A stretch of 13,819 nt of DNA, taken from the IMG/VR virus record IMGVR_UViG_2534681934_000027; one strand, written 5' to 3'. The position numbers were made by a program. The stretch's first letter is position 1, and every line of letters starts with the position of its first letter. The DNA is from a virus. Its lineage: Duplodnaviria; Heunggongvirae; Uroviricota; Caudoviricetes. Shown in pieces: positions 9,001 through 13,819 of this stretch.

Positions 9001-12000
9001 CCATAGAGCAGGAACGTCCGAAGGTTGCGCCGGAACTTACCGCAGCCTTTGAAAACTTTATGGACATGCACAGCCCGCAAGCCGTATCAGCTGGCATGGC
9101 ATACGATGGCAGAAACCAGGGCGATGACGGCGACATCGATCGCATACTGAAAACCATCTGAGACAAGGCCGGAGAAATCCGGCTTTTTTACGGGTCCTTC
9201 CTGGAATTATGGCCCGTTACGGGGCGGCGACCTCGCGGATTTTCGCTATTTATGAGCCTTTTCAGGGTGGTGGTGGTGGTTTTGTTGTTTGATCTATCTT
9301 TATGAATGAAAAGGGAAAGATGCAAGCAATACACCAACCTGAAGCAGTAATTAAGTTGGTGTATTAATGAAATCTCATCTGATGAACAAAAAAACATGGC
9401 GAAAAGCTGCCGTGTAAGTGCGACAGCGTTCGACAAGTGGGGAGTAACTCCCGTTGAGCGTAAAGGCCGTGAGGCGTTTTATGATGTTGCCAGCGTGATA
9501 GAAAATAGGGTTAACAATGCAATTAGCCAGCTTATAAACGACAAAGGCGAGATTGACGATGATGAACTTTTACGAGTCAGGATCAGATTACTGACAGCAC
9601 AGGCAGAGGCGCAGGAACTTAAAAACGATCGCGATCGCGGTGACGTGATTGATACTGAGTTTTGCCTGTACGCGCTTTCAAAGCTGGCGAGTCAGATTTC
9701 ATCAATCATGGACAGCCTCCCGCTTACTATGCAAAGGAGCTTCCCACAGATTACCCCCGCCATGCTGGACAGGCTTAAAAGGGAAGTGGTTAAAGCCTGT
9801 AATGCCAGTGCCAGAGTTGCCGACATGAACCGCCCCGGGTTTCCTGGAGAGTGTTTTATCTGTGAACTCAGGCTGCCAGATCATCGTTTCCGATGGAAGC
9901 ATAATAAGCTTTTTCTGCTTCTGCCGGAGGAGTATGGCCCAGCCTTCCCAGCAATCGTCGATTGTTATACCAGTCCACCCACGTTAGTGTGGCCAGTTCC
10001 ACTTCTGCACGGTTTTTCCAGCTCTTACGGTGTATTACCTCCGCTTTGTAAAGACCATTGATGCTCTCAGCCATCGCGTTGTCATACGAGTCGCCTGTAC
10101 TCCCTGTTGATGCCAGTAATCCGGCTTCTTTTAGTCGCTCCGTATAGGCCAGTGACACATACTGAGAGCCTTTATCGCTGTGATGGATGGTGCCAGACGG
10201 ACGACGGGCCCACAACGCCTGCTCCAGCGCATCCAGCACGAATGTCGTTTCCATAGACGATGAGACCCGCCACCCCACGATGTATCCGGCAAACACATCA
10301 ATGATAAACGCCACATAGACGAAGCCCTGCCATGTGCTGACGTAAGTAAAATCAGCCACCCACAGCTGGTCAGGTCGTTCTGCCACGAACTGACGGTTTA
10401 CGCGGTCGCCTGCGGCAACGGCTTTCCGGCTGATGGTCGTACGGACCTTTTTACCCCGGAGAACACCGGCAAGTCCCATAACCGCCATGAGACGTGCCAC
10501 TGTACATCTGGCCACCCTGATTCCTTCCCGTAACAACTGACGCCAGACTTTACGCACACCGTACACCTGATGATTTTCATCGTATACGCGCTGTATCTCT
10601 CTCTTCAGCCAGTCGTCGTGCTGCGCACGGGCACTGCGTTTATCCGGATGATGTCGCTGTTGCTGACAATGGTAATACGTTGACGGGGCAATATGCAGTT
10701 CGCTGCATACCGGTCCGACCCCGTACTGCTCACGCAGCTTATCCAGCAGTGGCATCATTTTTTCCAGAGGCGGTCGAACTCCGCCTTCGCAAAATAAGCG
10801 GAAGCCTGGCGAAGGATATCGTTACTGCGGCGCAGTTCACGATTTTCACGTTCCAGCTCTTTCAGACGCTGACGTTCAGCGCTGGTGAGCCCACCATCAC
10901 CGCCCCCGGTATCCCGCTCATGCTGGCGAACCCAGACACGCAGAGTCTCCGGCGTACAGCCAATCTTTGGGGCAATGGAACAAATTGCCGCCCACTGTGA
11001 GTCATATTCATCCTGACTTTCCAGAACCATACGAATCGCCCGCTGACGGACTTCGGGGGAAAAACGAGTATTTTTAGTCATCCTGTTTACCTCTTTCTCA
11101 GGGAGTTTAGTCTCCAGGATTTCCGGGGCGGTTCAACAACCTCCCACAGATACTGGCTGATTACTTGAAAGAAACAACCGGAAACGTACCGGAAAAGTTG
11201 CTACAGAAGAAAGGCGAGTAACAGACGCGCAATTATTGAACAAAAATGAGAAAGGATCTGATAATGGCATTTTCTGGCTAAAATGCCTCGTGTCAGATCC
11301 TTTCTTTTTTTAATATTTTCATTGTTAAACAGTCTGTTACAGAGAAGAAGATCGGATCTGACTTTTGCCGGAAAATTCTCATAAACAGATAAAAACCGCG
11401 AGGTCGCCGCCCCGTAACGGGCCATAATTCCAGGAAGGACCCGACGACACCAGACTATCAGAGCGATGGGGGCACAATGACAGAAGCCGAACTACTGGGA
11501 TTAATCCGCCGCGTCGCCGGAATCAGCCAGCAGCATGACGAACAGGCCACACAGCCGGACAGCGTGACCGCTGAAAATTATGTGCGTGTTGTAGCGGAAG
11601 TGATGCGCCGTGATGGTATAGAACTTAATGGCGTTGATATGCGCAACATACGGAACCGCGTTCTTGAAATGCTGGCCTACAATCGCCGCGTTGAACTGTA
11701 TCGGGAGAAAGAAAAAATAACGTACCACTGGAAGAAGCCGGAACGGCTGCGGCGGTAACTTGCTGATATTCCCGATAACGCAAAATTGCGCTGGCTACAT
11801 CCTCACATCTGAGGACTGTTAATCAGAAGGCCGGAATATATTCACAAACTACGAAATTTTCGTAGTTTAATTAATGGTCAGATTAATCGCTAACCCGCTG
11901 ATATTTTCGGAAACCTCAATTTGAGGAAGTCGGAAGCGTCACCCTTCATATTCTGAATGGTCATAATGACCACGCAGACCATCAAGGCAACCACAACGAA

Positions 12001-13819
12001 CATCGTTACGGTTGGAGCTTTTACCCCACTGGGGGAAAGGTATTACGATAATCATAACACCTACCGAACAGGTAAAACCCACCAGCCTGATTAACAGTTA
12101 ACCGGAAAAAAAATCCGGTAGCCCCGTTATGGGGATCCCCATATCGACATTAACGCCCCTCATGAATTGGTGCGCTTCCCCCTGGAAAGATTACCCGCCT
12201 GTATATTTCTTGTGTCTATTTGTTCCACGTTGTTTCATACAGTGCACCGAACGGTGTAGTTAATGGTGTAGTCAATTTGCTGTTTTTAGCACTTTTTGCA
12301 GTGTGGGTTGTTTAATTAAATCAATGGGTTGCCTTGCTGTGGTGATAAAAGGACATATTTATTCATCTTTCGGCGTAGAATGCTGGCGACCAAAAATCAC
12401 CTCCATCCGCGCACCGCCAAGCATGCTCTCTCCGGCGACGATTTTACCCTCATATTGCTTGGTGATTTCGCGGGCTACCGCCAGCCCCACACCTTGCCCA
12501 GGGCGTAAAGTATCAACCCGTTGACCACGGTCGAAAATGACCTCTCGCTTGCTTAATGGAATACCGGGGCCATCATCCTCGACCACAATATAGAGATGCT
12601 CGTCGGTTTGCCTTGCAGAAATTTCGACAAACTCGAGGCAATATTTACAGGCATTATCCAGTACATTGCCCATCACCTCGACAAAATCGTTCTGCTCACC
12701 GACAAAGCTGATCTCTGGCGAAATATCGAGAGAGATATTGACCCCTTTGCGTTGATACACTTTGTTCAGCGCCGAGGTGAGATTGTCCAGCAGTGGGGCG
12801 ACCGGATGCAGCTCGCGGCTGAGCAATGTCCCGCCGTGCATACTGGCACGATGCAGGTAGTAGCCAATTTGCTGTGAAATGCGGCTGATTTGCTCCAGCA
12901 TTACCGGTTCAGCATCACTGACGCTCATCTTTTCACTACGTAGAGAACGCAGCGTACTTTGCAGCACCGCCAGTGGCGTTTTCAGACTATGGGTCAGGTC
13001 GGTGAGCGTTGTACGATATTTGTCGTAACGTTCGCGTTCACTTTTTAACAATCGGTTCAGGTTTCGTACCAGACTGGTCAGTTCTCGCGTTGTGGCTGGA
13101 TTGAGCAATTCGCGGTTATGTTCTTCCAGTTCGCGGACTTCTTTTGCCAGGGCTTCGATGGGGCGTAAACTCCACCAGGCGGCGACCCACAGCAGCGGGA
13201 TCACTAACAGCAGATTGGCTGAGAGCACATAGATAAACCAGCTCCAGACCATATAGGAACTTTTTAGCTCCACCGGAATGGTATCCACCACCACAATGGT
13301 TAACTTTGGCATCCGCGATGTTGCCGGGTAGACGTTTACCGCCACCGAGTGGGTCATCTCCGCGTCGTCATCATCTTCCCGCACTTCCTGCAACTGTTGC
13401 TGTATCGAATGATCTCCACTCAGCAAGAGGCTGGTATCGTTAACATCCGCTTCAATTTCATGAAAACCATTCGATTTCAGCCAGTCAGGCTGGATCATCT
13501 TCATCAGCCAGGGCACGTCACGTTGCGCCCATAAAAGCTGCCCGTTCTCATCATAAATTAGCGTCATGGTGGGGCTTTGCTTGTCGATATTTTCGGGTAA
13601 CTCGACATGCAACTTATTGTTTTCCCACTTCGCAAGGGTATAGAACAGATTGCTCTCGCCACGTAACAGCCGAAACGTAGTTTTATCGAAACTGACGCTA
13701 TAACCGATCAGCGCGACCATTCCGTAGGCAAGCGAAAGCACCAGTACTACCGCTGCCGTTGCCAACAGAAAACGTACCCGCAGCGAGAGCGGGAAAAAAA
13801 GACGCAGTAATTTTTTCAT

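What the first reader, a model, noticed from the sequence alone, without database searches (positions are those of the whole stretch)
11759..12358. 600-bp ORF-poor junction between the island and phoQ
No ORF of 60 aa or more on either strand. The region contains a 23-bp perfect palindrome AAACTACGAAATTTTCGTAGTTT (11846..11868), the palindrome GGGGATCCCC (about 12131..12140) and a possible 37-aa minus-strand ORF (11890..12003, MFVVVALMVCVVIMTIQNMKGDASDFLKLRFPKISAG) with a hydrophobic N-terminus but no convincing ribosome-binding site. The right attachment site, a small membrane or toxin-like peptide, or a small RNA could lie here.
Basis: seen in the sequence. Interest (0 to 1): 0.45.

Follow-up and report, generated by a model that had tools for sequence, protein, structure and literature searches.

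The report
Non-coding attachment arm of phage satellite
The 600-bp gene-free stretch next to phoQ is the non-coding right end of a phage-satellite island in E. coli O157:H7; it holds the island's attachment site and integrase/IHF docking sequences plus some repeated hairpin units, and it encodes no toxin peptide or known small RNA.

Summary
In detail: no contained ORF of 60 aa or more, a perfect 23-bp palindrome (11846-11868), GGGGATCCCC (12131-12140) and the 37-aa ORF are all there.

All 600 bp are island DNA. The island is a PICI-type phage satellite of the O157:H7 OI-51 kind, inserted in the 75-bp roxA-phoQ spacer. The attR core GGACATATTT lies at 12351-12360 and overlaps the phoQ stop codon.

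- **Conserved arm (about 11986-12350):** this is the P arm of attP. It carries two tandem GGTGTAGTYAAT repeats, which recur in the integrase-proximal arm. An IHF-consensus site sits a fixed 66 bp from them.
- **Mosaic spacer (11759-11985):** this part is built from palindromes and two copies of a roughly 50-nt repeat unit. Each unit is an IHF consensus site followed by a two-tier hairpin whose stems covary.
- **Distribution:** the units occur 1-5 times at the right ends of related E. coli/Shigella satellites, at varying distance from the core. Their function is unknown.
- **37-aa ORF:** it is split or stopped in nearly all relatives and is not a gene.
- **Small RNA:** no Rfam family, promoter or terminator was found, and no Hfq peak has been reported for this island.

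The verdict is mostly ordinary, with one modestly new repeat element.

The parts
11477..11758 (+). Last ORF of the island (93 aa, function unknown). In most related satellites it directly precedes the gene-free arm.
   Evidence: The ORF is. It matches PHROG phrog_1561 at E = 2.7e-58 with no assigned function. The ORF-then-gene-free-stretch layout recurs in the related islands examined, across four of the five insertion sites, with one exception at yejO. The family is narrow: 39 clusters among 1.8 billion proteins and one GTDB species, Shigella flexneri. A three-helix model (pLDDT 73) has no fold match.
11754..11802 (+). Repeat unit A. It has an IHF consensus site (TATCAGCAAGTTA, 11756-11768, minus strand, overlapping the ORF stop codon) followed by the hairpin CGCA-AAAT-TGCG (11779-11790).
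   Evidence: Covariance model R1 scores it at 48.1 bits, E = 3e-11.
11801..11814 (.). Short hairpin-forming palindrome CCTCA-CATC-TGAGG.
   Evidence: Read. It is paired in the minimum-free-energy folds of both strands.
11846..11868 (.). Perfect 23-bp palindrome AAACTACGAAATTTTCGTAGTTT. It travels as one module with unit B in related islands.
   Evidence: I3. About 20 of 50 distinct relatives carry it. Most of them have one T-to-C change in the right arm; the sequence is conserved rather than covarying.
11889..11940 (+). Repeat unit B. It has an IHF consensus site (TATCAGCGGGTTA, 11891-11903, minus strand) followed by a two-tier hairpin: outer stem 11904-11910 with 11930-11936, a 3x3 A-rich internal loop, inner stem CCTCA/TGAGG 11914-11918 with 11922-11926, and loop ATT.
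   Evidence: Model R1 scores it at 68.5 bits, E = 2e-16.
11890..12003 (-). The 37-aa ORF, judged not to be a gene. Its C-terminal half is the reverse strand of unit B.
   Evidence: conservation; no family match.
11943..11987 (.). Imperfect inverted repeat around ATGGTCATAATGACCA. A mosaic breakpoint falls between about 11933 and 11986; related 'long' variants carry roughly 180 extra bp of hairpins here.
   Evidence: I1.
11986..12350 (.). Conserved block interpreted as the P arm of attP. It contains palindromes at 12020-12035 (CCCCACTGGGGG), 12101-12119 (ACCGGA-A7-TCCGGT) and 12122-12146 (including GGGGATCCCC).
   Evidence: This is the best-conserved part of the region: 24-42 of 50 distinct relatives match any given position up to about 12330. 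It includes islands inserted at other chromosomal sites that carry related integrases.
12253..12276 (+). Two tandem 12-bp repeats, GGTGTAGTTAAT and GGTGTAGTCAAT. They are candidate arm-type integrase binding sites.
   Evidence: The same tandem pair lies in the integrase-proximal arm (L001 5518-5541). The only other matches in the 32.6 kb searched carry two mismatches and are on the opposite strand. A 75-nt imperfect direct repeat links the two arms (D1).
12319..12331 (+). IHF consensus site AATCAATGGGTTG next to the core. It is the inverted counterpart of the site found in the repeat units.
   Evidence: It starts 65-66 bp after the first arm repeat in every variant that carries both, 28 of the 50 listed.
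12343..12360 (.). The attR crossover region. It comprises the island-side core-type half site TGATAAAA (12343-12350) and the 10-bp core GGACATATTT (12351-12360), whose last two bases belong to the phoQ stop codon (tta, 12359-12361).
   Evidence: Three sequences were compared: K-12 attB (...GAAGTATGGGCATATTTATTCATC...), attL of strain TR01 (...GAAGTATGGACATATTTTATCAATT...) and attR of the window (...GGTGATAAAAGGACATATTTATTCATC...). The reconstructed attP reads TGATAAAA-GGACATA-TTTTATCA.

Best explanation
The stretch is the non-coding right arm of an integrase-bearing phage satellite (a PICI of the O157:H7 O-island 51 type) inserted in the roxA-phoQ spacer.

**Proposed mechanism.** After excision the right arm joins the left arm upstream of int to form attP. 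The integrase would bind the inverted core-type sites around GGACATA and the tandem GGTGTAGTYAAT arm repeats on both arms. IHF would bend the DNA at the site 20-30 bp from the core. Strand exchange within GGACATATTT then inserts or releases the island without altering phoQ.

**Left 230 bp (11759-11985).** This is not part of that fixed geometry. It is a mosaic spacer of palindromes and two copies of a repeat unit (IHF consensus site plus a covarying two-tier hairpin). I take the units to be accessory architectural or insulating elements between the last operon and attP/int. No protein is encoded.

**Shown:** the island boundary, the core, the repeats, the consensus matches, conservation, covariation and the lack of coding conservation.

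**Inferred:** binding by Int and IHF, the crossover position within the core, and any role of the units.
For: **Island identity and boundary**
- The window is 99.7-99.9% identical to the O157:H7 TR01 chromosome, where the island runs from int to this stretch between roxA and phoQ.
- K-12 has only 75 bp between roxA and phoQ.
- The 10-bp core is shared by attL and attR, and the attB sequence differs at one base.

**Arm architecture**
- Arm repeats lie on both sides of the core.
- The window has 5 IHF consensus matches against 1.1 expected (0 of 200 shuffles reach 5). Three of them are in this stretch.
- The spacing from arm repeat to core-proximal IHF site is fixed at 65-66 bp in every variant that has both (28 of the 50 listed). 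The spacing from the last unit to the arm repeats varies from 298 to 537 bp in the variants I measured.

**Conservation of the layout**
- A gene-free right end of 450-1,100 bp recurs in related satellites with different packaging modules, at five chromosomal sites: roxA/phoQ, tqsA, clpS, yejO and yifB. In most of them it directly follows a homologue of the 93-aa ORF.

**Repeat units**
- Model R1 gives 84 hits, 83 of them on the + strand. All lie at the islands' right ends, almost all just downstream of the 93-aa ORF, in 258 kb searched.
- 42 of 47 distinct units match the IHF consensus exactly. The invariant columns are the consensus positions, while three of the four N positions vary.
- All five inner-helix pairs show compensatory changes.
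- There are at least 9 distinct inner stems. The mean perfect stem is 4.8 bp against 2.65 in shuffles.

**No coding signal**
- None of the small ORFs is conserved as a reading frame.
Against: - Nothing here demonstrates binding by Int or IHF. The consensus is short and degenerate.
- I found no excised circular form among 80 viral-contig loci, so attP is reconstructed rather than observed.
- No IHF consensus was found in the integrase-proximal arm.
- The units lie 300-540 bp from the arm repeats (roughly 400-640 bp from the core), vary in number from 0 to 5, and are absent from some islands with the same arm. A role in recombination is therefore doubtful, and the 'insulator/architectural' label is a guess.
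- Compensatory changes that preserve palindromes point to a folded single strand (RNA or extruded DNA). A purely duplex protein-docking role does not explain them.
Confidence: 0.72

Rival explanations
1. The hairpin-rich part (11750-12160) acts as RNA. It could be a structured 3' untranslated tail of the island's last operon, or a source of processed small RNAs. In that case the repeat units would be protein- or RNA-binding stem-loops.
For: - Folding z-scores are -7.9 and -6.1, no weaker than any other tile of the window.
- Both stems of the unit covary.
- The outer stems use G-U pairs on the + strand: 72 of 442 pairs in the + strand folds.
- The units have a fixed orientation, 83 of 84 on the + strand, starting at the stop codon of the upstream ORF.
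- No terminator-like site follows that ORF in this variant, so read-through transcripts would include the units.
Against: - No Rfam match even at E = 10.
- No promoter-like or terminator-like site inside the stretch.
- There is no significant difference in stability between the strands (-10.5 against -10.1 kcal/mol, p = 0.11).
- The most conserved letters of the unit are exactly the IHF DNA consensus positions.
- No orphan Hfq peak is assigned to this island in the Sakai CRAC table.
- Some relatives replace the units with an ordinary terminator.
Confidence: 0.18
2. The spacer is functionless debris: recombination scars and local duplications accumulated between the last gene and the attachment arm.
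For: - The mosaic is extreme. Modules are reordered, duplicated or missing between relatives.
- Unit number ranges from 0 to 5.
- One island has a unit fused directly to the att core, evidently a deletion (L065).
Against: - Palindromes are kept through compensatory changes.
- IHF consensus positions are invariant while neighbouring positions vary.
- Unit-like motifs recur in 30 further viral-contig stretches that lack the 93-aa ORF.
Confidence: 0.08
3. The 37-aa minus-strand ORF encodes a small hydrophobic toxin or membrane peptide, as in a type I toxin-antitoxin locus.
For: The ORF exists and has a hydrophobic N-terminus.
Against: - No ribosome-binding site lies upstream.
- The ORF is intact in only 2 of 50 distinct relatives besides the window itself (L016, identical over the ORF, and L005).
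- L091 has an in-frame stop at codon 10, and mosaic breakpoints split it in the remaining variants.
- In L005, 8 nucleotide substitutions give 6 residue changes.
- No match in Pfam, PHROGs or NCBIfam.
- No promoter-like site was found.
Confidence: 0.02

Closest known systems
attP/attR arms of tyrosine-integrase temperate elements (lambda attP; P4-type satellite attachment sites)
   Same: - A short core is shared by attL and attR.
- Inverted core-type half sites surround a 7-bp overlap.
- Direct arm-type repeats lie on both arms.
- An IHF consensus site sits close to the core.
- The integrase gene lies next to the site.
- Insertion leaves the flanking host gene intact.
   Different: - Binding and recombination are not demonstrated here.
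- Only one IHF consensus lies within the fixed-geometry arm and none in the integrase-proximal arm.
- The conserved arm is long, about 350 bp.
- It is preceded by a variable hairpin-rich spacer that classical attP sites lack.
E. coli PICIs (EcCICFT073, and the capsid-forming EcCIEDL933 family)
   Same: - The gene order matches: int, alpA-type regulator, primase/helicase with iterons, PerC-like gene, packaging module.
- There are two lambda-like cos sites, as reported for EcCICFT073 (PMC6739421).
- Capsid-forming relatives carry the same last ORF and right arm.
   Different: - This island is not the characterised EcCIEDL933. It carries lambda E/D-like capsid and decoration genes plus a small-terminase-like gene.
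- That gene is interrupted here by a 1,310-bp IS.
- The papers I read do not describe the non-coding right arm.
RIP / BIME-1 elements of E. coli (repetitive IHF-binding palindromic elements); comparison from my own knowledge
   Same: Both are extragenic repeats that combine an IHF consensus site with adjacent hairpin-forming palindromes, placed downstream of genes.
   Different: - The palindromes here are short, variable and unrelated to the REP consensus.
- Each unit has one hairpin on one side of the IHF site.
- The units are tandem and co-oriented.
- They are confined to satellite or phage-like DNA rather than dispersed through the chromosome.
Lambda sib and other att-adjacent RNA hairpins that control int
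   Same: Both are hairpins on the far side of att from int, brought next to int only in the excised form.
   Different: Here the hairpins would lie upstream of int in the circular form, not downstream, so sib-type 3' retroregulation cannot apply. No RNase III-type long stem was identified.

Membership tests
Attachment site (attR plus P arm) of a tyrosine-integrase mobile element | Lies exactly at the boundary between element and host DNA, as defined by an empty site. | tested here: met
   The K-12 roxA-phoQ spacer was compared with attL (TR01) and attR (window). Host sequence resumes at 12361.
Attachment site (attR plus P arm) of a tyrosine-integrase mobile element | Identical short core at both ends of the element. 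| tested here: met
   GGACATATTT is at L001 5383-5392 and at window 12351-12360. K-12 attB reads GGGCATATTT.
Attachment site (attR plus P arm) of a tyrosine-integrase mobile element | Inverted core-type sites flanking the overlap region in attP. | tested here: met
   The reconstructed attP reads TGATAAAA-GGACATA-TTTTATCA, with 8-bp perfect inverted arms. This rests on sequence only.
Attachment site (attR plus P arm) of a tyrosine-integrase mobile element | Arm-type repeats on both arms. | tested here: met
   GGTGTAGTYAAT occurs twice in each arm, all co-oriented. The only other matches in 32.6 kb carry two mismatches and are on the opposite strand.
Attachment site (attR plus P arm) of a tyrosine-integrase mobile element | Binding of integrase and IHF, and recombination activity. 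| not testable with these tools
   Only consensus matches are available. No excised form was found among the fetched loci.
Type I toxin or small membrane peptide gene | Reading frame conserved among relatives, with a translation start signal. | tested here: not met
   The frame is intact in only 2 of 50 distinct relatives besides the window itself (L016 and L005), with a stop in L091 and mostly non-synonymous changes in L005. There is no Shine-Dalgarno sequence.
Known small RNA or cis-regulatory RNA family (Rfam 15) | Match to a covariance model. | tested here: not met
   There is no match inside 11759-12358 at gathering score or at E up to 10.
Independent sRNA gene | Own promoter and intrinsic terminator; Hfq association in O157. 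| tested here: not met
   There are no promoter-like or terminator-like sites in the stretch. The published Sakai Hfq-CRAC table has no peak assigned to this island. Expression itself could not be tested.
Lambda-type cos site | cosN sequence GGGCGGCGACCT with flanking cosQ and cosB. | tested here: not met
   cosN-like sequences lie elsewhere, at 9193-9260 (+) and 11344-11414 (-), and none is in 11759-12358.
RIP/BIME-1 repetitive IHF-binding palindromic elements | IHF consensus site within the repeat. | tested here: met
   42 of 47 distinct units carry WATCAR-N4-TTR. The invariant columns coincide with the consensus positions.
RIP/BIME-1 repetitive IHF-binding palindromic elements | REP-type palindromes on both sides, and dispersal around the chromosome. 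| tested here: not met
   Each unit has a single short variable hairpin. All 84 model hits lie at satellite right ends, and none in about 60 kb of flanking chromosome. Similarity to the REP consensus was judged by eye, not by a search.

The most novel reading that the evidence does not exclude
The roughly 50-nt units (an IHF site fused to a two-tier hairpin with an A-rich 3x3 internal loop) may be a previously undescribed family of structured repeats. They would be specific to enterobacterial phage satellites and some phage-like contigs, and selected for folding. Possible roles are RNA stem-loops in the tail of the late transcript or extruded DNA hairpins. Either could control read-through into attP/int or recruit a satellite or helper factor.
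Probability: 0.2. Interest if true: 0.5.

Novelty: new member of a known kind. Interest (0 to 1): 0.28.

Why it matters
The analysis fixes the exact right boundary and crossover core of an O157:H7 satellite island (OI-51 type) that influences type III secretion according to the literature. It shows that phoQ is left intact. It also removes a candidate toxin peptide from consideration.

The repeat units are a small new observation. If they prove functional, they would add a cis element to the biology of PICI excision, expression or transfer. As things stand, the stretch is an ordinary attachment arm.

Tried and rejected
**Searches that returned nothing useful**
- Rfam at gathering score and at E up to 10 gave nothing in the stretch.
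- No tRNA or tmRNA was found.
- The phage genome collection gave no match in distant mode.
- The plasmid collection gave only 4 E. coli records.
- The GTDB species scan with the 93-aa protein returned one locus, Shigella flexneri.
- The structure model of the 93-aa protein has three helices, but no PDB match had E below 1.
- Pfam and NCBIfam gave only sub-threshold noise.
- None of the fetched viral contigs has int downstream of the arm, so no excised circular form was found.

**Ideas considered and dropped**
- *A second replication region like P4 crr.* The origin iterons AAAAGTGAGG (5381-5575) do not recur in the stretch. The one 24-nt similarity (D12) is just another CCTCA...TGAGG palindrome.
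- *Units as small-terminase R sites.* This rests only on a GTTTCC hexamer shared with lambda cosB. The same units occur with unrelated terminase types.
- *Strand assignment from folding energy.* The result was inconclusive.
- *RNAalifold on the ungapped unit alignment.* It predicted nothing because of register shifts. The structure was then supplied by hand and tested by pair counts and a covariance model.
- *Esr41 and other EcOnc sRNAs.* They map to other islands.
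Full report
**Observation.**
- No ORF of 60 aa or more is contained in 11759-12358. A mechanical 73-aa ORF starts at 12303 and runs antisense into phoQ.
- The 23-bp palindrome at 11846-11868 is perfect.
- GGGGATCCCC is at 12131-12140, inside a 22-bp near-palindrome.
- The 37-aa minus-strand ORF at 11890-12003 has the stated translation and no Shine-Dalgarno sequence upstream.
- The stretch is also unusual in folding. The segment 11750-12160 folds with z = -7.9 (+) and -6.1 (-) against dinucleotide shuffles. In my own 30-shuffle tiling of the window it scored -7.1 and -7.3, the lowest values of any tile. Most other tiles lie within |z| < 3.

**Where the window comes from.**
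- The stretch is identical to many E. coli O157:H7 chromosomes.
- In strain TR01 the same island runs from a tyrosine integrase next to roxA to this stretch next to phoQ.
- Its genes are an AlpA-type regulator, Icd-like genes, a RepA-type helicase followed by iterons, SSB, a PerC-like gene, a lambda-E-like major capsid protein, a decoration protein, a small-terminase-like protein and a final 93-aa ORF.
- This is a PICI-type phage satellite. By position it corresponds to O-island 51 (z1835-z1857) of EDL933 (PMC8565820).
- It is not the characterised capsid-forming EcCIEDL933, which is a different 15.4-kb island.

**The boundary.** K-12 has 75 bp between roxA and phoQ. Three sequences were aligned:
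- attB of K-12: …GAAGTATGGGCATATTTATTCATC…
- attL of TR01: …GAAGTATGGACATATTTTATCAATT…
- attR of the window: …GGTGATAAAAGGACATATTTATTCATC…

The alignment shows a 10-bp core, GGACATATTT, at both ends. In the window it lies at 12351-12360, and its last two bases belong to the phoQ stop codon. The whole 600 bp is therefore island DNA and phoQ is unaltered. The reconstructed attP reads TGATAAAA-GGACATA-TTTTATCA, the usual inverted core-type sites around a 7-bp overlap.

**The conserved arm.**
- I gathered 50 distinct sequences downstream of the 93-aa ORF from complete E. coli genomes and IMG/VR contigs.
- Positions 11986-12330 are the best-conserved part, matched by 24-42 of the 50 relatives at any position.
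- This holds for islands inserted at tqsA and yifB with related integrases. More distant islands at clpS share only short pieces of it.
- The block contains two tandem GGTGTAGTYAAT repeats at 12253-12276. The same pair lies in the integrase-proximal arm, all co-oriented. The only other matches in 32.6 kb carry two mismatches and are on the opposite strand.
- A 58-75-nt imperfect direct repeat joins the two arms.
- An IHF consensus site at 12319-12331 starts 65-66 bp after the first repeat in every variant that has both, 28 of the 50 listed.
- I read this block as the P arm of attP.

**The mosaic spacer and the repeat units.**
- Positions 11759-11985 vary by module gain, loss, duplication and reordering.
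- Within them I found a repeat unit of about 50 nt on the + strand. Its form is TAAC-NNN-YTGATWYTYYCGR, then AAA, an inner hairpin of 4-6 bp with a 3-4-nt loop, ARR, and YCG pairing back to CGR.
- The window has two copies, at 11754-11802 and 11889-11940. The first begins at the stop codon of the 93-aa ORF.
- A covariance model built from 18 units finds only these two in the window (68.5 and 48.1 bits).
- In 52 loci (258 kb) the model finds 84 copies, 83 on the + strand. All lie at the islands' right ends, almost all just downstream of the 93-aa ORF, with 1-5 copies per island.
- The conserved 5' part is the reverse complement of the IHF consensus WATCAR-N4-TTR. It is exact in 42 of 47 distinct units. 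The invariant columns coincide with the consensus letters, while three of the four N positions vary.
- In the window the consensus occurs 5 times against 1.1 expected (0 of 200 shuffles reach 5). Three of the five are in this stretch.

**Hairpin covariation.**
- The hairpin part varies in sequence but stays paired. All five inner-helix pairs show changes on both sides, and no shuffle reaches the observed covariation.
- There are at least nine distinct inner stems. The mean perfect stem is 4.8 bp against 2.65 in shuffles.
- The outer stem also covaries: CGG/CCG, CGA/TCG, CCCGA/TCGGG and CCA/TGG.
- A neighbouring palindrome shows a clean double change between variants, GCGCAAAATTGCGC against GCTCAAAATTGAGC.
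- Folding energies do not favour either strand.
- The distance from the last unit to the arm repeats ranges from 298 to 537 bp in the variants I measured.
- Some islands with the same arm have no unit. They carry GTGACA repeats and an ordinary terminator (GACGTGACCAACGTCATTTTTT) instead.
- The units are therefore not part of a fixed recombination complex.

**The peptide.**
- Besides the window itself, only two distinct variants (L016, identical over the ORF, and L005) keep the 37-aa frame intact.
- L005 shows 6 residue changes for 8 substitutions. L091 has TGA at codon 10.
- In the remaining variants the frame is split at the 11933-11986 breakpoint.
- Its C-terminal half is simply the reverse strand of unit B.
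- The 45-, 47-, 44-, 30- and 31-aa frames behave the same way. The 44-aa frame is kept only because the DNA is 97-100% identical, and six of its seven substitutions change the residue.
- None has a Pfam, PHROG or NCBIfam match.

**A small RNA.**
- There is no Rfam match and no promoter-like or terminator-like site.
- The published Hfq-CRAC table for Sakai has no orphan peak assigned to this island (PMC4104026).
- Expression could not be tested. Because stems covary, an RNA role (for instance as the structured tail of the last operon) remains the main rival.

**Comparison with known systems.**
- The right 375 bp meets every sequence-level criterion of a tyrosine-integrase attachment arm. Binding and activity are untested.
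- The units resemble the IHF-binding palindromic repeats (RIP/BIME-1) of E. coli in combining an IHF site with hairpins. They differ in sequence, arrangement and distribution, so I do not class them there.
- The papers on E. coli PICIs that I read do not mention this arm.
- A degenerate unit pattern finds 115 stretches in IMG/VR. Thirty of them lack the 93-aa ORF, and some lie in PICI-like or HK97-like contigs. The motif is therefore somewhat wider than this family, but I did not resolve those contexts.

**Verdict.** This is an ordinary attachment arm of a known kind of satellite. It contains no peptide gene and no identifiable small RNA gene. It does contain one modestly new cis element of unknown function.

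Noticed in passing
window 9826-11135: A 1,310-bp IS3-family insertion interrupts the small-terminase-like gene relative to strain TR01, with a 3-bp overlap at the junction. It carries the ALIL frameshift pseudoknot at 10684-10800 on the minus strand; the size fits IS629. This copy of the island is probably defective in its own packaging function.
   Followed up: partly
window 9193-9260 (+) and 11344-11414 (-): Two lambda-like cos sequences (cosN ACGGGGCGGCGACCTCGCGG) lie in inverted orientation on either side of the small-terminase-like gene. The second aligns to lambda bases 1-69 at 81% identity. Two cos sites are reported for EcCICFT073 (PMC6739421); I did not check there whether they are also inverted.
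   Followed up: partly
window 11240-11330: A long inverted repeat (AGAAAGGATCTGA…TCAGATCCTTTCT) lies beside the second cos site, where a cosB-like region would sit. It produced several weak, meaningless Rfam matches.
   Followed up: no
window 5381-5575: At least six copies of the iteron AAAAGTGAGG, in both orientations, lie directly after the RepA-type helicase gene. This is the likely replication origin of the island.
   Followed up: partly
L001 12080-12109, 12444-12473, 14717-14746 (the last is about window 9154-9183): Three copies of one intrinsic terminator, AGCCGGAGAAATCCGGCTTTTTT, punctuate the island's operons. No such terminator follows the last ORF in this variant.
   Followed up: no
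window 1357-1369 (-): A further exact IHF consensus match (AATCAGCTACTTA) lies between int and the AlpA-type regulator gene.
   Followed up: no
L065 about 2431-2480: In one IMG/VR island a repeat unit (…TTGATTCTTTCGG) is fused directly to the att core and the phoQ end (ACATATTTATTCATC). This is a deletion that removed the whole P arm.
   Followed up: no
L010, L019 and L070, first 130 bp after the 93-aa ORF: Alternative right-arm variants lack the repeat units. They carry four or five GTGAC(A/G) direct repeats and a canonical terminator (GACGTGACCAACGTCATTTTTT).
   Followed up: partly
L096 10024-10768 and other IMG/VR loci (L100, L111, L125, L128, L132, L143, L147): Unit-like motifs (IHF site plus CGRAAAC plus hairpin) occur in contigs without the 93-aa ORF. 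In L096 one sits in a 745-bp gene-free stretch after an unrelated 94-aa ORF. In HK97-like contigs they lie a few hundred bp past the major capsid gene. Hosts and contexts are unresolved.
   Followed up: partly
window 12359-13819 (phoQ): In the published Hfq-CRAC data for Sakai, phoQ (ECs1601) ranks 74th among Hfq-bound mRNAs. The position of the binding site relative to the island junction is not given in the text I read.
   Followed up: no
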